From IMG/VR virus record IMGVR_UViG_3300045988_174062: a stretch of 40,648 nucleotides of DNA. One strand, given 5' to 3'. The notes below the pieces were generated by a model. It worked only from the letters and a program-made list of their open reading frames with translations, had not been told where the DNA came from and did no database searches. Source of the DNA: a virus. Positions 3,201 through 36,140 of this stretch are shown here, in pieces (position 1 is the stretch's first letter; each line of letters starts with the position of its first letter). The position numbers were made by a program, and so were the translations under genes.

Positions 3201-4305
3201 CTAAATTAACTATTTTAGCTACTTCTACATCCAAGTTAGTAATATTCTCGGCTGGTAAATTTTCTACTTTTGAACCATCTATAGTTCCATTATCACTAGT
3301 GATTGCATCTATCGTATTGTTCTTAGCTTCATTTTCTTTTTGTAATTCTTCAAAAGTTAATGTAGTGTTTCCTAACTCACAACTATTTTGCGAAGGATCA
3401 TCAGGATACTGAATATACTTAACTATTCTTTGTTTATCTCTAAATTTTTCTTGTTTAGATAAAAGAGTTATAGTATCACCTAAAAAGAAGTCTAAAAAAT
3501 TATATTCTTCACTTTGCTTAGCTAAATCCGATATACTTGCTTGATAGGTCCTTTTAGGCTTTGATAATTCATCTAATTTAACCTCGGCATCTTCCTTAAG
3601 ACTATTTACATCTGTATATCTATTATCTTCCCAAATAAGTTCTAAAACTTTGTTTGAGTACTGGAAGTTTTCAATATACTCTTTGCCATTATTTATACTT
3701 GCTATGGTAAGTCCATCTTTCCCTTTAGGATATAATCTAGTTGCATAATCATATGTATCAGAAGGTATGCTAAAAGATTTTAGGTTTAATTCATCACTAA
3801 AATAAACTCCTCTATCTTCTCCAAACTGTTCATATACATATATAATTTTATTTATTGCATCATACCTAATATCGACTCTAAATACTTTTCTAACTTCTCT
3901 TAGTACTTCTAAAGCATTTGTATTAGTAAGTCTTACTGTTCTTCTTTTAGTTATATTATTATCTGCTAATATCCAACCTGTTCCAGCTATAGCTAATCTT
4001 ATAGTGTCATTTACATTATTATTACTTGTATCAAAACTAGCTATAGCTTTTCCAACTAAAGCCTCAACATTTATATTACAACTAAATCTTTTAAAATTAT
4101 CACTAGGATCTATTGCTTTAATAACATACTCATTATCTTTAGTTCTTATATATCCTTCTTCTTCAAGTAAGTTTATTTTTTCATCAGAAATAGAAAGAGA
4201 GAACTCAAGTAAGTCCTCTCCACTAAGTACATATTCTATTTTTAAATCTTTAGTATCTGTAAGAGTATCTATTGCAACATGCTCTTTGTTATATAATTTC
4301 AACAT
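280..4305 (-). CDS. Tail-associated lysin-position protein / tail fibre (Tal-like N-terminus, coiled-coil shaft, CBM-like insert, C-terminal S74-type intramolecular chaperone)
   Basis: 1341 aa. The N-terminus (MLKLYNKEHVAIDTL...NEYVIKAI) is typical of the siphovirus minor structural protein / Tal N-terminal region. Long T/S/N-rich heptad segments are present. A beta-rich insert (NLILGTKDFTIDNS...FKKAQIERGNKVSDWS) is flanked by two similar coiled-coil segments. The C-terminus (NTSDRSYKDNIEY...IKILEERISKLENL) resembles the autoproteolytic chaperone domain of tail fibres. Confidence 0.85.
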   Translation of the reverse strand: MLKLYNKEHVAIDTLTDTKDLKIEYVLSGEDLLEFSLSISDEKINLLEEEGYIRTKDNEYVIKAIDPSDNFKRFSCNINVEALVGKAIASFDTSNNNVNDTIRLAIAGTGWILADNNITKRRTVRLTNTNALEVLREVRKVFRVDIRYDAINKIIYVYEQFGEDRGVYFSDELNLKSFSIPSDTYDYATRLYPKGKDGLTIASINNGKEYIENFQYSNKVLELIWEDNRYTDVNSLKEDAEVKLDELSKPKRTYQASISDLAKQSEEYNFLDFFLGDTITLLSKQEKFRDKQRIVKYIQYPDDPSQNSCELGNTTLTFEELQKENEAKNNTIDAITSDNGTIDGSKVENLPAENITNLDVEVAKIVNLEAISIKVNNLEAANVTITGKLNAIEGEFGTLKANVATIDKITVTHTAQINNLEAKKASIVQLEAVFATIGTVEAEVAKIQILVNGNLTSENIHSLHLTSASVTVENGFIKNAMIENLDVSKVNAGDISTNKFRIKSDDGGIEIVGATQQFKDKNNKVRVQIGRDKNNNFTFSLFDETGVGVLIDHTGIKKGAIANDLIVSDMIASDSVGEKQINYSSFVTGFNKDTNTNTIKSTKIMLNNQNQTLDIAFNSIKTQVDTTKALTESHSTTIGIMQGQISTAINNTQIVKDGQTILLKDDYNRTVQTVNSINSTLGSHTTQINEATGKIKGVETRVNTVERDLSSITARVSSTESTTTTLTSKVNAVEGTANTAKTTANTANSNATNAMNKANDANSKIDNLEIGSSNLILGTKDFTIDNSRVKGWLNQGGFTITQEGGYKIATHSASGLTRNTIKGLFSSYIPCKKGDTFTVSVYIKVESVNNWDVKVPFIVEGYDAKKARIEYVDVSVINNNSNKPTLVNNEWVRFVYTYTITNVNTTSFGIRLSLFRNGKISFKKAQIERGNKVSDWSISSDDLQNQIDTHTTQITTTNNKVSSIETNLSSITSRVSNVENTTATINGNVTNLQTRMNTAEQKITVTAITNTITEQINNGHILVNTSSTKLDKYGFHFIKNNQKLSSLKNGGLYGYNSNNGKFLGSMQPILPTSNSYSSFGFLANGNCDMFQIAYAPSWVNDTENIAGAGLTSVFNINFVDKSSAGITKGAYLYTNLNLTGYLAMNGNNIIGANAIGASEFQCNKFYSTNGGKPILMEYLGSELKIYPTVITGKMYPSYNNGLDLGQSTHRYRTVYSVNSLNTSDRSYKDNIEYVNSNIGISKLNEDITLLDMHEFIKNDLHLAKYNYIDQKHKEFGFIADDIVCTKVGSKLIIGKKGEYSYSVGSYISVIVGALKTEINIRDNQIKILEERISKLENLVKI

Positions 4306-32539: not shown

Positions 32540-32625
32540 AAAAATAGTCGATAAAATAAACAAAATTTGTTTACAAAAACAACCAAAAATGGTATTATAA
32601 TATTAAAGTTGAGGAGGGTAAGACA

Positions 32626-32979
32626 ATGAAAGTAACTGAATTTGGAAAATTCTCAAGAAAATTACGAATTGAGAATGATGAATTACTTAGAGATATGGCT
32701 AATAAGCTAGGTGTTACAGCTTCTTATTTATCTGCTGTAGAAATAGGTAAAAGAAATATACCAAAAAAATGGGAAAATATTATTGTTAACGCTTATCAGC
32801 TTGATAATAGTAAAGCCTTGGAATTAAGAGAGTCAATAGAGTACTCTATAAAAGTAATAAATATAGAGGTAGAACAATTAAATAATGAAGATAAAAATTT
32901 AATATTTATGTTAGCTAGAAAGGTTAATAATCTTGATGAAAAAGATAAAAATGAATTAAGAGAAATTTTATTTAGGTAA
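32626..32979 (+). CDS. XRE-family HTH protein (ImmR-like partner of the metallopeptidase)
   Basis: FGKFSRKLRIENDELLRDMANKLGVTASYLSAVEIGKRNIP is an XRE HTH. A GAGGAGGG RBS is present. Confidence 0.75.
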   Translation: MKVTEFGKFSRKLRIENDELLRDMANKLGVTASYLSAVEIGKRNIPKKWENIIVNAYQLDNSKALELRESIEYSIKVINIEVEQLNNEDKNLIFMLARKVNNLDEKDKNELREILFR

Positions 32980-32992
32980 AGAGGTGATAGAT

Positions 32993-33538
32993 TTGTCCTA
33001 TAAAACCAGGCCAAGATCTATAAAAGAAATACGCAATAAAGCAGAGATAGTTAGATCAATTATCCAAATTACAACAAACACATCTGGTGATAGTATAGAT
33101 ATTTTAAGGTTTGTGGAAAATGAAATAAGAGATAAAATAGATGAAAATTTCAATTTTATAGTATGTACTGAAGATGAGATGAAATCTAACTATGGAACAA
33201 CTTATTTAAATAAAAATACTATATGTATACGTGAAGATGTATACTATAGAGCTTGTGATGGTAATAGTAGAGATTTATTTACTATAGCCCATGAGTTAGG
33301 ACATTTATTTCTTCATTCGAATCAAAATGTTGAGTTAGCTAGGTCATCATCAGACGTGAAATTATATGAAGATGCAGAATGGCAAGCTAATACATTTGCT
33401 GCAGAATTGCTTATGCCTGCTAAATTAATAACTGAATGTGATACTCATTTTACTTTGATGAATCGATTTGGAGTTTCATATGAAGCAGCAGATATAAGAT
33501 TGAAAAAATTAGGTATTTATAACACTCAGTGTTGTTGA
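32993..33538 (+). CDS. ImmA/IrrE-family zinc metallopeptidase (COG2856-like)
   Basis: The HEXXH motif TIAHELGHLFLH plus downstream EWQANTFAAELLMP. The start is ambiguous: TTG at 32993 is preferred on RBS spacing, against the track's GTG at 32984. Confidence 0.8.
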   Translation: MSYKTRPRSIKEIRNKAEIVRSIIQITTNTSGDSIDILRFVENEIRDKIDENFNFIVCTEDEMKSNYGTTYLNKNTICIREDVYYRACDGNSRDLFTIAHELGHLFLHSNQNVELARSSSDVKLYEDAEWQANTFAAELLMPAKLITECDTHFTLMNRFGVSYEAADIRLKKLGIYNTQCC

Positions 33539-33565
33539 TATAAATATAAATAAAATAAAATAAAA

Positions 33566-33624
33566 AAAGTCTATTTGTCGATAGACTTTGTAAAAAGATT
33601 AAACTAAATTTGTCGATTTAGTTT
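33566..33624 (+). other. Twin stem-loops with identical TTGTCG loops
   Basis: aaagtctat-TTGTCG-atagacttt (33566-33589) and aaactaaat-TTGTCG-atttagttt (33601-33624). Both have 9-bp stems and they lie 35 bp apart. Confidence 0.6.
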
Positions 33625-33705
33625 TGTATATTTAAATATCACTAAATAACATTGTATACAAATTATTATCTTTTTGCAATTATTTTATTTGGAAAGGAGA
33701 TAATA

Positions 33706-33834
33706 ATGTACATTTTTAGAGCTTCTAAAACTGTAAATGGACAAAAAATATATGCTAAAGATTATGGAAAAAAAGCATTCCCTATATGGGTAGGTCCTAA
33801 AGGAAAACAAGAGAAGAATAAAATAAAAAAATAA
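33706..33834 (+). CDS. Small basic protein (42 aa)
   Basis: A GGAAAGGAG RBS lies upstream. Product: MYIFRASKTVNGQKIYAKDYGKKAFPIWVGPKGKQEKNKIKK. Confidence 0.4.
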   Translation: MYIFRASKTVNGQKIYAKDYGKKAFPIWVGPKGKQEKNKIKK

Positions 33835-33904
33835 GAAAATATATATTAAAATATAACTAAATATATACTGTTTATTTTTATATATTTTGTAGTATAATAT
33901 AAAT

Positions 33905-34036
33905 ATAAAAGGAACTTCAATCTATTTGCACTAGAGTGATGTTTCCAAAACTTTAATTTTTGGTAATTTTGAACTTGATTTTTATTTCAAGTTCCACGCC
34001 ACTCTTAGTTTTCCTAGAACTAGAGTGGCTTTTTAA
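33905..34036 (+). ncRNA. Candidate antitoxin sRNA 2
   Basis: Promoter ...ttttgtagTATAAT (33893-33898). The terminator gccactct (33998-34005) / agagtggc (34022-34029) plus T5 is embedded in the toxin 2 ORF. The ends are approximate. Confidence 0.4.
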
Positions 34037-34117
34037 TTTGTCGGATATGTAGTTAGTCAATAGACCAAGACATATTGTGCAAATAGCACCTATGACAATA
34101 TTTATCATTTGTTCCAT
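33953..34117 (-). CDS. Type I toxin candidate 2 (54 aa; paralog of toxin 1)
   Basis: My own translation: MEQMINIVIGAICTICLGLLTNYISDKLKSHSSSRKTKSGVELEIKIKFKITKN. A GGAAGGAGGTGAG RBS is present. The promoter TGATATAAT lies on the minus strand at 34207-34199. Confidence 0.6.
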   Translation of the reverse strand: MEQMINIVIGAICTICLGLLTNYISDKLKSHSSSRKTKSGVELEIKIKFKITKN

Positions 34118-34365
34118 ACTTCTCACCTCCTTCCGTTAAGAAGTAGGCTTTATATTTAGTATGGAAACACCACTCTATAAATTGAAATTCCTATATTTAT
34201 TATATCATATCCATATAAGTTTTTATATACTTCAATCATTTCTTTGTTTTTATTATATAAATAAAACAAAATTTCATAAATTAATAAATGAACAAAAAAC
34301 ATTAATAAATGTATATTTTGTTCATTTATTAATTTATGAACGAAATAAAATAATTAGAGCTATGC

Positions 34366-34467
34366 CGAAAACTAAAAAACGAAGGCAAAAGTTATAGTTA
34401 CATATCAAGTGTAACAGGCTGGAGCAAAGCAATTATAAGCAGAGTTATAAATAATAAAAATTATTAA
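34366..34467 (+). pseudogene. 3' remnant of a paralog of the 32231..32539 HTH gene
   Basis: About 88% identical over about 110 bp to 32440-32550. It would encode ...KLKNEGKSYSYISSVTGWSKAIISRVINNKNY*. An in-frame stop lies 5 codons upstream and there is no start codon. Confidence 0.7.
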
Positions 34468-34495
34468 AAAAATAGTATTATTTAACTGAAATATA

Positions 34496-34524
34496 TTGAC
34501 TCACCGTAACGGTTATGTTATAAT
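34496..34524 (+). promoter_or_regulatory. Near-consensus sigma-A promoter
   Basis: TTGACT (34496-34501), N17 ending in TGT (extended -10), TATAAT (34519-34524). Confidence 0.65.
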
Positions 34525-34551
34525 ATAAATATAGAAAGGGAGGTGAAGAAA

Positions 34552-34671
34552 GTGGCAAATAGAAGAAAACAAAAGAAAAAAAAGAAGAACACAGAACTTG
34601 CGACGGCTCGAATTCTTCTTTTGATAGAAATACTTAGCATAGTAAATACTATACTAGATAAGTTTTTCTAA
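34552..34671 (+). CDS. Small protein (39 aa) with a poly-Lys N-terminus and a hydrophobic C-terminus
   Basis: GTG start with an AGGGAGGTG RBS. Product: VANRRKQKKKKKNTELATARILLLIEILSIVNTILDKFF. The hairpin at 34671-34698 follows. Confidence 0.35.
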   Translation: MANRRKQKKKKKNTELATARILLLIEILSIVNTILDKFF

Positions 34672-34698
34672 TACTTAGGGGCGAAAGCCCTTAAGTAT
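34671..34698 (+). terminator. GC-rich hairpin (weak U-tract)
   Basis: atacttagggg-cgaaag-cccttaagtat. Confidence 0.4.
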
Positions 34699-34818
34699 AT
34701 AAGTTTTCTTTCATTATACCACAATGTACTATGAACGATACAAATAAATTATTAAAAATATCAATTGCATTAGCAATAGTAAATATAGTTCTACAAATAT
34801 TTTTATAGGAGATTAAAA

Positions 34819-34998
34819 ATGAGTAAAAAAAGATTAAAAGTAAATTTTAATAAAGGTGGTAATGGTGGAGTTAGTGCAAAGCTAACTCTTCCAATAACAA
34901 TGGTTAGAGAATTAGGAATTGATGAAGAAAATAAGTTCATTGATGTAGTTTGTGAAGATGGCAAAATAATAATTGTTAAATCAGAAACTCAAGAATAG
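34819..34998 (+). CDS. AbrB/MazE/SpoVT-type DNA-binding protein (59 aa)
   Basis: My own translation: MSKKRLKVNFNKGGNGGVSAKLTLPITMVRELGIDEENKFIDVVCEDGKIIIVKSETQE. The pattern G..S..LTLP....RELGI.....I.V..EDGKIII.K is the looped-hinge-helix fold signature. Confidence 0.6.
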   Translation: MSKKRLKVNFNKGGNGGVSAKLTLPITMVRELGIDEENKFIDVVCEDGKIIIVKSETQE

Positions 34999-35081
34999 TA
35001 TAAATATATTATAATAATATGAAAAAAATACATTAAAATATATACTGTGTATTTTTCTGCATTTTGTAGTATAATAAAAAC

Positions 35082-35192
35082 ATAGAAATAAAAAAGAGAA
35101 ATTATAATCTAGTGGAATAGAGTGTGATTTCTATAAATACATGTTTTTATTTATTAGAATCACTCTTATTGCCAGTAAGAGTGATTTTTAAT
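35082..35192 (+). ncRNA. Candidate antitoxin sRNA 3
   Basis: The promoter ...ttttgtagTATAAT (35070-35075) is homologous to the sRNA 2 promoter region. The terminator is aatcactctta (35158-35168) / taagagtgatt (35176-35186) plus T-run. It overlaps the 3' end of toxin 3. Confidence 0.4.
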
Positions 35193-35269
35193 TTATCATA
35201 AATAAATGCTCCGATGATGCTAATGATTATAGCATCAGAGTTATTTAATAATAACTTTAAAATTTCCAT
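35147..35269 (-). CDS. Type I toxin candidate 3 (40 aa)
   Basis: I prefer the ATG at 35269 (AAAGGAGGTG RBS). Product: MEILKLLLNNSDAIIISIIGAFIYDKLKITLTGNKSDSNK. The promoter TGTTATAAT lies on the minus strand at 35374-35366. Confidence 0.5.
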   Translation of the reverse strand: MEILKLLLNNSDAIIISIIGAFIYDKLKITLTGNKSDSNK

Positions 35270-35501
35270 ACTTACACCTCCTTTCTTTCGTGAAAGTAGG
35301 TGTTTTTTCTTTTGTATAGAAATCATCACTCTTAGATTATAATTTCTCTAAAAATATTATAACATAAAACCATTTACTAAAATAAAATAAATTGTTAACA
35401 GTTTTACTAAACACTTTATTTTCATAAATTAATTATTGAATAAAAATAAATATAAATGATATAATATTTTCATAAGTTAATTTATGAAAATAGGTGATGA
35501 A

Positions 35502-36140
35502 ATGAAAATTTTTAAAGAAATATTAGATACACATACTAAGATATGTACTTGTAGAAAAGTGTATAAAATAAATGATGATATTGAAATTATAATTGACCAG
35601 AAGGACAATAAATTAGTTATGTGGGGAGTTAATCATAAAACAGATAGGTTTTTAAATTTATCTACAAAGAGATTTAAAATGCTTATGGATGGATTTAAGT
35701 CAGTAGCTAGTGATTTATATTCAAGCGGAAGTAAGAATCAAAATTACTATTACATAACTATAGGTAAATCTATTAATAATTCTAAGGCTACAGAAAATAA
35801 TGATAAAGTAGATATTGATTTATTGAAAGAAGAAATAAAAAGTTTGAAAGAAAAGTTATTGTTGCTAGATAGTGAAAATAATAAGTTAAAGGAAGATCTG
35901 GAAAGATATAAAAGAGAGTATTTATATTATTCTAATGAATATACAAATTTGAAAAAAGAAAATGAAAAAGGAAAATTAAATATTCATAATGCTAGAGGAG
36001 CAGGTAGAAAGGCTAAATTTACTGATTGTCAAGTTGATGAGATAAAAAGACTTAGGGAAAGTGGAAATACTATAAACGAAATAGCAAAAGTATTTAATTG
36101 TTCAGTTGGTTTAATTCATAAATTAATAAATGAAAAATAA
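35502..36140 (+). CDS. Coiled-coil protein with a resolvase-type C-terminal HTH (no recombinase catalytic domain)
   Basis: I prefer the ATG at 35502 (AGGTGA RBS). The C-terminus ARGAGRKAKFTDCQVDEIKRLRESGNTINEIAKVFNCSVGLIHKLINEK is HTH_7-like. The extended -10 TGATATAAT lies at 35457-35465. Confidence 0.6.
   Translation: MKIFKEILDTHTKICTCRKVYKINDDIEIIIDQKDNKLVMWGVNHKTDRFLNLSTKRFKMLMDGFKSVASDLYSSGSKNQNYYYITIGKSINNSKATENNDKVDIDLLKEEIKSLKEKLLLLDSENNKLKEDLERYKREYLYYSNEYTNLKKENEKGKLNIHNARGAGRKAKFTDCQVDEIKRLRESGNTINEIAKVFNCSVGLIHKLINEK

What the first reader, a model, noticed from the sequence alone, without database searches (positions are those of the whole stretch)
35070..35374. Type I TA-like cassette 3: a different toxin with the same architecture and a conserved antitoxin promoter
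**Toxin.** The minus-strand ORF 35147-35269 (AAAGGAGGTG RBS) encodes MEILKLLLNNSDAIIISIIGAFIYDKLKITLTGNKSDSNK. It is hydrophobic and carries a (I/Y)(S/Y)DKLK motif related to toxins 1 and 2.

**Shared architecture.**
- Its promoter is TGTTATAAT (35374-35366, minus strand).
- The convergent plus-strand promoter region (attaaaatatatactgtgtatttttctgcattttgtagTATAAT, ending at 35075) is homologous to the antitoxin-2 promoter region (33846-33898).
- The antisense RNA would end at the hairpin aatcactctta/taagagtgatt (35158-35186) plus a T-run, overlapping the toxin's 3' end.
- Flanking inverted repeats (35095-35135 vs 35325-35359) again allow fold-back.

Three such cassettes within 6 kb is a striking density for one phage genome.
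Basis: partly seen in the sequence, partly recalled or inferred. Interest (0 to 1): 0.65.

Follow-up and report, generated by a model that had tools for sequence, protein, structure and literature searches.

The report
Divergent type I toxin-antitoxin cassette
This 300-bp stretch of a gut clostridial phage-plasmid carries a small membrane-peptide "killer" gene and an overlapping antisense RNA "antidote"; it belongs to an unnamed, divergent branch of a family already tested in Clostridioides difficile, so it is solid but not surprising.

Summary
The features are a 40-aa ORF (35147-35269, minus) with a strong RBS, an extended -10 promoter, a convergent TATAAT promoter, a 15-bp terminator hairpin inside the ORF, and long flanking inverted repeats. 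Two right-hand coordinates are 10 nt too high.

The peptide is a real gene. It has 42 database clusters at 80-100% identity in Paraclostridium, Paeniclostridium, Romboutsia and related genomes, matches in 17 of 112 family genomes, and pN/pS of about 0.21.

Eighteen distinct cassettes share the same RNA anatomy with compensatory changes:
- a 34-bp clamp between the 5' and 3' ends of the toxin mRNA;
- a hairpin that sequesters the Shine-Dalgarno sequence;
- the in-ORF hairpin.

Toxin 3 itself misses NCBIfam NF047374 (C. difficile type I toxin). A 72%-identical plasmid orthologue hits it weakly, and a profile-profile comparison gives 94% probability.

Predicted RNA sizes are close to the published C. 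difficile values, somewhat shorter for the antitoxin and the overlap. Antitoxin 3 does not match toxins 1 or 2, so it is an independent module.

Sister phages carry the cassette intact, with a swapped toxin body, or with the toxin's 5' half deleted.

Verdict: a new, divergent member of a known kind. Toxicity and transcription remain untested.

The parts
35356..35364 (-). Toxin promoter, extended -10 box TGTTATAAT. The transcription start is inferred at about 35349.
   Evidence: Exact match. TGnTA(T/A)AAT is kept at the same place in all 7 cassettes of the window and G001, and in the family members from other genomes inspected.
35314..35349 (-). 5' arm of the toxin mRNA (AGAGAAAUUAUAAUCUAAGAGUGAUGAUUUCUAUAC). 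It pairs with the 3' arm.
   Evidence: Inverted repeats I2 and I7. The arm is paired in the MFE structure. Covariation was counted. The G.U versus A.C asymmetry is.
35274..35303 (-). Hairpin that sequesters the Shine-Dalgarno sequence. The anti-SD CACCUACUUUC pairs with GAAAGGAGGUG. AGGAGG lies at 35277-35282.
   Evidence: Four of the 6 SD bases have an unpaired probability of 0-0.01 in every construct folded. Helix 3 is 93.7% paired across 18 cassettes, with U-A to C-G compensation in 6 of them.
35147..35269 (-). Toxin gene, 40 aa plus stop: MEILKLLLNNSDAIIISIIGAFIYDKLKITLTGNKSDSNK.
   Evidence: ORF list. 42 homologue clusters. pN/pS 0.21, with third-position changes dominating. AlphaFold2 gives helices 2-9 and 11-36 with a break at N10, mean pLDDT 80.
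35156..35195 (+). Intrinsic terminator of the antitoxin RNA: 15-bp stem 35156-35188, then a U-tract. It lies inside toxin codons 25-38. The U-tract is the complement of the DKLK codons.
   Evidence: Terminator scan, fold. The stem is invariant in the 16 ITLT-type cassettes of the 18 aligned, while the loop's synonymous sites vary.
35082..35192 (+). Predicted antitoxin RNA, about 110 nt. It is complementary to the last ~15 codons and the whole 3' UTR of the toxin mRNA. Both ends are inferred.
   Evidence: Promoter plus terminator. Fold -30.1 kcal/mol, z = -5.7. 105 nt of perfect complementarity to toxin 3 mRNA, against 8-9 nt to toxins 1 and 2.
35046..35075 (+). Antitoxin promoter: -35-like TGTGTA (35046-35051), 18-nt spacer, -10 TATAAT (35070-35075).
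   Evidence: Sequence. 90% identical to the cassette 2 counterpart. GTTTATTTTT...TAGTATAAT is conserved across the family.
35095..35135 (-). 3' arm of the toxin mRNA, followed by the U-run CUCUUUUUUAU (35086-35096). On the plus strand the same DNA is the 5' hairpin of the antitoxin.
   Evidence: The segment folds at a mean of -10.7 kcal/mol on the antitoxin strand against -5.8 on the toxin strand, across 18 cassettes.
35088..35349 (-). Predicted toxin mRNA, about 262 nt with an 80-nt 5' UTR. Both ends are inferred.
   Evidence: Positions of the promoter and U-run. MFE -80.2 kcal/mol for this construct, with the 5'-3' clamp closed; a slightly longer construct gave -80.7. The clamp is present in the MFE of all 18 family members.

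Best explanation
Cassette 3 is an intact type I toxin-antitoxin module of the Clostridioides difficile / Peptostreptococcaceae superfamily. It belongs to a distinct, unnamed subfamily of 40-41-aa toxins with the consensus MEILKLLLNNSDAIxISIxGAFIYDKLKITLTGNKSD.

Transcripts (ends inferred):
- A sigma-A-type extended -10 promoter makes a toxin mRNA of about 262 nt on the minus strand.
- A convergent promoter makes an antisense RNA of about 110 nt. Its terminator hairpin sits inside the toxin ORF.

Toxin mRNA structure (shown by folding and covariation):
- Its Shine-Dalgarno sequence is locked in a local hairpin.
- Its two ends are closed by a clamp of about 34 bp.

Mechanism (inferred from the C. 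difficile work):
- The antisense RNA is perfectly complementary to the last ~105 nt of the mRNA, including the 3' arm of the clamp. It pairs with that region and the duplex is degraded, with RNase III as one likely nuclease.
- If the phage-plasmid is lost, the short-lived antitoxin disappears first. The stable mRNA is then eventually translated, and the membrane peptide stops growth.
- The module therefore acts as an addiction (post-segregational killing) device.
- It is independent of cassettes 1 and 2, because antitoxin 3 cannot pair with their mRNAs.
For: 1. Real coding gene:
- 42 clusters at 80-100% identity and 40-45 aa (or 54-67 aa where an upstream start was called), named from Paraclostridium/Paeniclostridium sordellii, Romboutsia and other Peptostreptococcaceae.
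- Matches in 17 of 112 genomes of the family.
- pN/pS 0.21. In codons 1-24, variable sites are 19 at third positions against 3 at second positions.

2. Homology to tested toxins:
- hhalign of A2 against A4 gives 93.9% probability, E 1.6e-7.
- The orthologue MEILRLFLNNSDAIFFSIVGCFIYDKLKSHSNGNKSDLNK hits NF047374 at E 2.3e-4.
- BLASTP against phiCDHM14 gp35 gives 43% identity over 28 residues.

3. Same DNA skeleton as cassettes 1 and 2, the G001 cassettes and a C. difficile phage cassette.

4. RNA structure conserved in 18 distinct cassettes:
- 93.7% of cells are paired, against 42-54% when the partners are slid.
- 6 pairs show double-sided changes (2 of 500 shuffles reach this).
- Transition mismatches in the clamp are G.U on the toxin strand in 11 columns and A.C in 2.

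5. Predicted sizes: mRNA 262 nt, 5' UTR 80 nt, antitoxin ~110 nt, overlap ~105 nt. The measured C. difficile values are 298-306, 83-88, 125-140 and 131-134 nt (PMC5961336), so the 5' UTR agrees closely and the other three are 15-25% shorter.

6. Short toxins of 34-35 aa (CD0956.3, CD0904.1) are potent, and these modules stabilise plasmids (PMC7699646).

7. Setting: an actin-like partition ATPase gene (ALP_N, E 1.4e-8) lies 4 kb away.

8. Orthogonality: the antitoxin 3 duplex is -160 kcal/mol with its own mRNA, against -45 and -51 with toxins 1 and 2.
Against: - No expression or toxicity data.
- Toxin 3 is the least toxin-like of the set. Its longest uncharged apolar run is 12 residues, interrupted by the near-invariant N9-N10-S11-D12. 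Its tail has a net charge of only +2, against +4 to +6 in the others.
- It has no hit to NF047374, Pfam or a meaningful PHROG.
- The SD hairpin stays closed in every construct folded, so how translation is ever switched on is not explained.
- The -35 element of both promoters is poor.
- Several homologues elsewhere are pseudogenes, so the family does decay.
Confidence: 0.78

Rival explanations
1. The cassette keeps the type I TA chassis, but the peptide is no longer a growth-arresting toxin. It would be a small membrane protein with another role, for example superinfection exclusion, abortive infection, or modulation of the neighbouring lysis genes. It would remain under antisense control.
For: - Only 12 contiguous apolar residues and a weakly cationic tail.
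- A near-invariant polar NNSD block, predicted as a helix break at N10.
- No hit to the curated toxin model.
- Relatives in P. sordellii sit directly after the holin and amidase genes.
Against: - Homology and identical regulatory anatomy to tested toxins.
- The 34-35-aa C. difficile toxins with short tails are potent (PMC7699646).
- Tight antisense control and SD sequestration are costly features, expected for a harmful product.
- Sister phages that lost the toxin's 5' half kept the antitoxin. That is the expected order of loss for a true toxin.
Confidence: 0.13
2. The cassette is a decaying remnant: a toxin truncated at its C-terminus and drifting, with leftover RNA motifs.
For: - Compared with the G001 allele, about 35 nt encoding the beta-like tail (GFQVKFNIKVKFD) are missing.
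- Pseudogenised relatives exist: L035, L078 and L049.
Against: - The 40-41-aa form is the conserved state across genera, not a one-off truncation.
- pN/pS is 0.21.
- Start codon, SD, both promoters, both arms and the terminator are intact and co-vary.
Confidence: 0.05
3. The inverted repeats are terminal repeats of a miniature mobile element, not RNA-pairing arms. The cassette would spread by transposition.
For: - Arms of 17 + 11 bp lie about 220 bp apart, flanked by A-runs on both sides.
- Copies occur in phages, plasmids and chromosomes.
Against: - Both promoters lie outside the arms and are conserved along with them.
- In G001 the arms and promoters stay while the inside is swapped.
- Mismatches between the arms are biased towards G.U on the toxin strand, which is an RNA signature.
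- No transposase is associated.
Confidence: 0.02

Closest known systems
Short C. difficile prophage type I TA pairs CD0904.1-RCd13 and CD0956.3-RCd14 (PMC7699646); a similar short toxin is phiCDHM14 gp35 (MVINFLLSILAGVISAFIYDKIKNHSNATKSGLRK)
   Same: - Toxin of 34-35 aa with a short tail.
- Shared core (A/S)FIYDK(I/L)K followed by the CACUC hairpin.
- AGGAGG 7-8 nt before the ATG.
- A convergent antisense RNA.
- Carried on phages, next to a partition gene in phiCDHM14.
- Shown to be toxic and to stabilise plasmids.
   Different: - Toxin 3 has five extra N-terminal residues and the polar NNSD block.
- Its hairpin is read in another frame (ITLT instead of NHSN).
- Its tail charge is +2 rather than +4.
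- gp35 scores 47.5 bits on NF047374, whereas toxin 3 gives no hit.
- I could not retrieve the CD0904.1 or CD0956.3 sequences themselves, so their relationship to gp35 is not established and this comparison rests on gp35 alone.
CD2517.1-RCd8, CD2907.1-RCd9 and CD0956.2-RCd10 of C. difficile 630 (PMC5961336); NCBIfam NF047374
   Same: - Convergent overlapping transcripts.
- Long 5' UTR (83-88 nt against a predicted 80 nt).
- Sequestered ribosome binding site.
- Antitoxin of 125-140 nt overlapping the mRNA by 131-134 nt (predicted here: ~110 and ~105 nt).
- The duplex is degraded by RNase III in vitro.
- The mRNA is stable (~35 min) and the antitoxin less so (~13 min).
   Different: - Those toxins are 50-53 aa with lysine-rich tails, and sit next to CRISPR arrays.
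- Toxin 3 is 40 aa and sits on a phage-plasmid.
- A 5'-3' clamp is not mentioned in the passages I read of these papers. The same arms are visible in a C. difficile phage cassette.
Cassettes 1 (29.6 kb) and 2 (34.0 kb) of the same window
   Same: Same skeleton, column by column. The antitoxin promoter region is homologous to that of cassette 2.
   Different: - Toxins 1 and 2 (59 and 54 aa) hit NF047374 and phrog_738; toxin 3 does not.
- Antitoxins 1 and 2 share 19-nt runs with each other's targets. Antitoxin 3 shares only 8-10 nt with either.
hok/sok of plasmid R1
   Same: Works alike in one respect: the full-length toxin mRNA is closed by pairing between its 5' and 3' ends (fold-back inhibition) and has a sequestered ribosome binding site. 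This comparison is from established knowledge of hok/sok, not tested here.
   Different: - No sequence relation.
- Sok pairs with the 5' leader (mok), whereas here the antisense covers the 3' end and the 3' arm itself.
- Whether 3' trimming activates this mRNA is unknown.
txpA/RatA and bsrG/SR4 of Bacillus subtilis prophage-like elements
   Same: The antisense RNA overlaps the 3' end of the toxin mRNA. RNase III is involved. They sit on prophage-like elements (as summarised in PMC5961336).
   Different: No detectable sequence similarity: no Pfam hit. The toxin families and RNA folds differ.

Membership tests
C. difficile-type type I TA (toxins of NCBIfam NF047374; RCd antitoxins) | The toxin scores above the curated cut-off of NF047374 (60 bits). 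| tested here: not met
   Toxin 3 gives no hit at E <= 10. Its P. bifermentans orthologue scores 21.5 bits. The model is strict: C. difficile phage toxins gp35 and LIBA2945_00053 also fall below the cut-off, at 47.5 and 55.1 bits.
C. difficile-type type I TA (toxins of NCBIfam NF047374; RCd antitoxins) | Detectable protein homology to the family. | tested here: met
   hhalign of the toxin-3 family against C. difficile-type toxins gives 93.9% probability, E 1.6e-7, over 26 columns. BLASTP against gp35 gives E 7e-6 for the pair.
C. difficile-type type I TA (toxins of NCBIfam NF047374; RCd antitoxins) | Small peptide (<60 aa) with a hydrophobic N-terminal helix. | tested here: met
   40 aa. The N-terminal part has a mean Kyte-Doolittle score of 1.41, similar to toxins 1 and 2. 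AlphaFold2 predicts helices. Caveat: the apolar run is only 12 residues, with NNSD in front of it.
C. difficile-type type I TA (toxins of NCBIfam NF047374; RCd antitoxins) | Lysine-rich, positively charged C-terminal tail. | tested here: inconclusive
   The tail DKLKITLTGNKSDSNK has 4 K and 2 D, net +2. The other toxins compared have +4 to +6.
C. difficile-type type I TA (toxins of NCBIfam NF047374; RCd antitoxins) | A convergent antisense RNA with its own promoter, overlapping the 3' part of the toxin mRNA. | tested here: met
   Met at the sequence level only: a conserved TAGTATAAT promoter, an in-ORF terminator, and a predicted overlap of about 105 nt. The transcripts themselves were not observed.
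C. difficile-type type I TA (toxins of NCBIfam NF047374; RCd antitoxins) | AGGAGG 7-8 nt upstream of the ATG, a long 5' UTR, and a ribosome binding site sequestered in a double-stranded region. | tested here: met
   The SD lies 7 nt upstream. The predicted UTR is 80 nt. The SD hairpin is conserved with compensation.
C. difficile-type type I TA (toxins of NCBIfam NF047374; RCd antitoxins) | Ectopic toxin expression arrests growth, and the cognate antisense RNA neutralises it. | not testable with these tools
   Needs a bench experiment.
C. difficile-type type I TA (toxins of NCBIfam NF047374; RCd antitoxins) | [quoted passage not shown] | not testable with these tools
   Only suggested by structure: the mRNA ends are clamped at about -80 kcal/mol, against -30 for the antitoxin.
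C. difficile-type type I TA (toxins of NCBIfam NF047374; RCd antitoxins) | Carried on prophages or plasmids of Peptostreptococcaceae. | tested here: met
   Found in the window phage with a ParM-like gene, in sister IMG/VR phages, on P. bifermentans plasmids and in P. sordellii prophage-like contigs.
hok/sok | Hok-family toxin, a mok leader ORF, and Sok antisense RNA at the 5' leader. | tested here: not met
   No Pfam hit to Hok. The antisense RNA lies at the 3' end. Only the 5'-3' fold-back is analogous.

The most novel reading that the evidence does not exclude
The superfamily may be conserved and diversified mainly at the RNA level, in three linked ways.

1. The 'peptide motif' is largely an RNA motif.
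- YDK(L/I)K plus SHS is the antisense terminator read backwards. The lysine codons are the U-tract and CACUCU is the stem.
- In the toxin-3 subfamily the same CACUCU is read one frame over (ITL instead of SHS), after a compensated -1/+1 indel.
- C. difficile shows the same switch (SHSER against TTRSR).

2. Three frozen RNA blocks may act as recombination anchors.
- The blocks are the 5' arm, the DKLK hairpin and the 3' arm.
- Between them, phages would swap transmembrane modules and tails. Supporting cases are the G001 swap and the P0042 chimera.
- Swapping would create new, non-cross-reacting addiction specificities.

3. The toxin mRNA may lack a strong terminator of its own.
- It may rely on the 5'-3' clamp both to terminate and to stay silent.
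- The antitoxin targets the clamp's 3' arm.
Probability: 0.3. Interest if true: 0.55.

Novelty: new member of a known kind. Interest (0 to 1): 0.36.

Why it matters
- It extends the experimentally founded C. difficile type I TA family to an unannotated subfamily. The subfamily occurs in about 15% of sampled Peptostreptococcaceae species genomes and on their phages and plasmids. Current curated models miss it, and NCBI records label it 'hypothetical protein'.
- It gives a third, orthogonal addiction module on a single 40-kb phage-plasmid. That helps explain how such elements persist in gut clostridia.
- The family offers a compact natural example of dual coding, where an antisense terminator is written inside a toxin ORF.
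- It also shows module swapping at RNA-structured anchors.
- A new short toxin could serve as a counter-selection marker, as CD2517.1 already does.

Tried and rejected
Searches that found nothing useful:
- blastn of 34700-35700 and tblastn of the peptide against GenBank phages gave no match. Megablast of the structural genes gave only a 4% hit.
- Rfam at E <= 1 gave only sub-threshold chance hits: SpF22 at 28.9 bits against a gathering score of 55, plus CyaR and an astrovirus frameshift element. There is no curated RNA family for these antitoxins.
- Pfam gave only noise for all four toxins.
- The window's own assembly is not held.

Readings rejected:
- The longer 60-aa ORF (GTG at 35329). The upstream frame is not conserved and is closed after 5 codons in relatives, and the SD sits before the internal ATG.
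- The mid-ORF hairpins of the MFE structure. They are 79.6% paired and reach the shuffled level in 64 of 500 shuffles.
- A miniature-transposon reading of the arms. See the rival explanations.

Left unexplained:
- A simple switch in which removing either arm frees the SD. The SD hairpin stays closed in all truncations folded, so the activation step remains unexplained.
Full report
**What is there**

- The minus-strand ORF 35147-35269 encodes MEILKLLLNNSDAIIISIIGAFIYDKLKITLTGNKSDSNK. AGGAGG (35277-35282) lies 7 nt before the ATG.
- On the minus strand, TGTTATAAT, a perfect extended -10 box, lies at 35364-35356.
- On the plus strand, TATAAT is at 35070-35075. It sits in a stretch (35036-35076) that is 90% identical to the region upstream of cassette 2.
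- The plus strand has a 15-bp hairpin at 35156-35188 followed by a T-run. It was one of three terminator-like sites found where 0.1 were expected.
- Two perfect inverted-repeat blocks flank the gene: 35095-35111 with 35333-35349, and 35125-35135 with 35315-35325.
- Exactly three cassettes of this type lie in the window.

**The peptide is a real, selected gene**

- A search of 5.8 billion proteins gave 42 clusters at 80-100% identity. They are 40-45 aa long, or 54-67 aa where an upstream start was called.
- The few named clusters come from Paraclostridium/Paeniclostridium sordellii, Paraclostridium sp., Romboutsia sp. and other Peptostreptococcaceae.
- In their alignment, N9, N10, S11, D12, Y24, D25, K26, K28, I29-T32 and K35-D37 are invariant or nearly so. 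Substitutions in the hydrophobic part are I/L/V/F exchanges.
- Seventeen of 112 species genomes of the family carry a match, some of them interrupted by stop codons.
- Over 12 distinct coding sequences pN/pS is 0.21. In codons 1-24, 19 third positions vary against 3 second positions.
- AlphaFold2 with this alignment predicts helix 2-9, a break at N10, and helix 11-36 (mean pLDDT 80).

**It is homologous to the C. difficile type I toxins, but divergent**

- Toxins 1 and 2 and the G001 allele hit NCBIfam NF047374 (CD_typeI_toxin) at E 1e-3 to 7e-7. Toxin 3 gives no hit, and only E 0.08 on phrog_738.
- Two bridges close the gap:
  - Paraclostridium bifermentans plasmids (NZ_CP094935.1, CP124690.1) carry a 72.5%-identical orthologue, MEILRLFLNNSDAIFFSIVGCFIYDKLKSHSNGNKSDLNK. 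It hits NF047374 at E 2.3e-4.
  - A profile-profile comparison of the toxin-3 family with C. difficile-type toxins gives 93.9% probability.
- The closest phage toxin found is phiCDHM14 gp35, 35 aa...ISAFIYDKIKNHSNATKSGLRK.
- Short toxins of 34-35 aa (CD0956.3, CD0904.1) are potent in C. difficile (PMC7699646).

**The cassette anatomy is shared and co-varies**

- All seven cassettes of the window and the sister phage G001 align on one skeleton. A C. difficile phage cassette (LIBA2945) shows the same arms and promoters.
- I collected 18 distinct toxin-3-type cassettes from viral, genome and metagenome contigs and from plasmids. I aligned them.
- I tested a model of three elements:
  - a clamp between the mRNA's 5' and 3' ends (17 + 17 pairs);
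  - an SD/anti-SD hairpin;
  - the in-ORF hairpin.
- In that model 93.7% of cells are paired, against 42-54% when partners are slid. Six pairs show changes on both sides, a count reached by 2 of 500 shuffles.
- Examples of compensation are AAUUAUAAU/AUUAUAAUU against AAUUACAAU/AUUGUAAUU, and CUUUC/GAAAG against CUUCC/GGAAG.
- Transition mismatches between the clamp arms are G.U on the toxin strand in 11 columns and A.C in 2. That points to pairing in the toxin mRNA rather than mere DNA symmetry.
- The window's toxin mRNA folds at -80.7 kcal/mol (z = -10) with the clamp closed. The clamp appears in the MFE of all 18 members.
- The antitoxin promoter is conserved across most of the family as GTTTATTTTT-N10-11-TAGTATAAT.

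**Predicted transcripts**

| Feature | Predicted here | Measured in C. difficile (PMC5961336) |
|---|---|---|
| Toxin mRNA | 35349 to ~35088, 262 nt | 298-306 nt |
| 5' UTR | 80 nt | 83-88 nt |
| Antitoxin | 35082 to ~35192, ~110 nt | 125-140 nt |
| Overlap | ~105 nt | 131-134 nt |

- In C. difficile the ribosome binding sites are sequestered and the mRNA is more stable than the antitoxin.
- All ends here are inferred from the promoters and U-runs. No RNA data could be consulted.

**Mechanism, with its weak points**

- By analogy, the antisense RNA pairs with the 3' third of the mRNA and the duplex is degraded. Loss of the element lets the stable mRNA outlive the antitoxin. In C. difficile these modules raise retention of an unstable plasmid from 1% to 22-64% (PMC7699646).
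- The window carries a ParM-like ATPase gene.
- Antitoxin 3 is orthogonal. It has 105 nt of perfect complementarity to its own mRNA against 8-9 nt to toxins 1 and 2, and duplex energies of -160 against -45 and -51 kcal/mol.
- Unexplained: the SD hairpin stays closed in every truncation folded, so the activating step is unknown.
- Toxin 3 also has only 12 contiguous apolar residues and a +2 tail. A milder or different membrane activity therefore cannot be excluded.

**RNA-level constraint inside the ORF**

- The DKLK codons (GATAAATTAAAAA) are the complement of the antitoxin terminator's U-tract. The following codons are its stem.
- In the 16 ITLT-type cassettes the stem is invariant. The two loop codons run through ACT/ACA/ACG/ACC and GGC/GGG/GGA/GGT.
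- The hexamer CACTCT is read as H-S in KSHS toxins. In toxin 3 it is read one frame over, as (I)T-L. The plasmid orthologue shows the intermediate state.
- C. difficile toxins show the same alternation, SHSER against TTRSR.
- The same 3'-arm DNA folds at a mean of -10.7 kcal/mol on the antitoxin strand and -5.8 on the toxin strand. The toxin's own terminator hairpin is therefore weak, and the clamp may substitute for it. This last point is inference.

- Five IMG/VR contigs and several ENA contigs carry the cassette with an identical ORF and a few changes elsewhere. The changes in the 3' arm keep pairing, for example G-C to G.U.
- G001 keeps both promoters and both arms (97-100% identical) but has a different 51-aa toxin body.
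- L022 matches the window up to 35231 and then breaks. It has lost the toxin's 5' half and kept the antitoxin.
- One database protein is a chimera of the G001 N-terminus and the toxin-3 tail.

**Verdict**

- The cassette is a new, divergent member of a known kind. The density of cassettes is not unusual for this family: phiCD630-1 has four toxin genes (PMC7699646) and G001 has four cassettes.
- Interest is moderate.

Noticed in passing
L007 1189-1600 (G001, sister phage), equivalent to window 35040-35370: Cassette 3 keeps its promoters and both arms (97-100% identical). The toxin body is replaced by MEQKKKIIITVIVIPFIIGLAVNFVYDKIKNHSYGNKGGFQVKFNIKVKFD. The breakpoints fall at the conserved RNA blocks.
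   Followed up: yes
L022 3826-5171 (IMG/VR 38.5-kb contig), equivalent to window 33887-35231; also L051: The sister phage has lost the toxin promoter, SD and first ~12 codons but keeps an intact antitoxin promoter, 5' hairpin and terminator. This is an orphan antitoxin, possibly an anti-addiction remnant.
   Followed up: partly
P0042 (ENA, 709-nt contig): A chimeric toxin, MEQKKKIIITVIVIPFIIGLAVKFVYDKLKITLTGNKSDSNK. It combines the G001-type N-terminus with the toxin-3-type tail, as if recombined at the DKLK block.
   Followed up: no
L052 about 3600-3760; protein P0037 (25 contigs): A variant in which the terminator loop is inverted and the palindrome extended. The tail then reads ...ITLIARKSDFYFIINKF. 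It looks like a template-switch inversion fixed in a lineage.
   Followed up: no
P0048, P0051, P0052 (C. difficile): C. difficile toxins occur as DKLKSHSER... and as DKLKTTRSR.... The CCACTC stem is therefore read in two frames there too.
   Followed up: no
L065 4001-4562, L066 202-763, L072 (P. sordellii contigs): Two toxin-3-type cassettes lie in tandem, 436 nt apart, directly downstream of the holin and amidase genes.
   Followed up: no
L068 4001-4126 (350-kb contig): A copy lies between a ferredoxin-like gene and an acetyltransferase gene with no phage genes nearby. It appears to be a chromosomal, non-prophage location.
   Followed up: no
L035 (Terrisporobacter MAG), L078, L049/L082: Decayed copies. 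L035 has ATG changed to ATA, a frameshift and a lost 3' arm. L078 has ATG changed to ATT. L049/L082 have lost the 5' arm and the SD.
   Followed up: partly
window 32542-33825: A segment encoding an Xre-like HTH protein and a Peptidase_M78 (ImmA/IrrE-like) protein lies between cassettes in the window. It is absent from G001.
   Followed up: no
window 35110-35139 and 35148-35177: The antitoxin's 5' region (AGAGUGUGAUUUCUAUAAAUA) can pair with the 5' half of its own terminator (70% over 30 nt). AGAGUG/CACUCU occurs four times in the cassette, which allows alternative folds whose role is unknown.
   Followed up: no
window 34819-34998 (+): A 59-aa ORF just upstream of the antitoxin promoter contains an AbrB/SpoVT-like LTLPITMVRELGI stretch, judged by eye. 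It has no Pfam hit at E <= 0.01, and no terminator was noticed before the antitoxin promoter. Read-through could therefore give longer antitoxin transcripts.
   Followed up: no
window 35484-36140 (+): A 218-aa protein with only a C-terminal resolvase-type HTH (HTH_7, E 2.4e-6). It is transcribed divergently from the toxin promoter.
   Followed up: no
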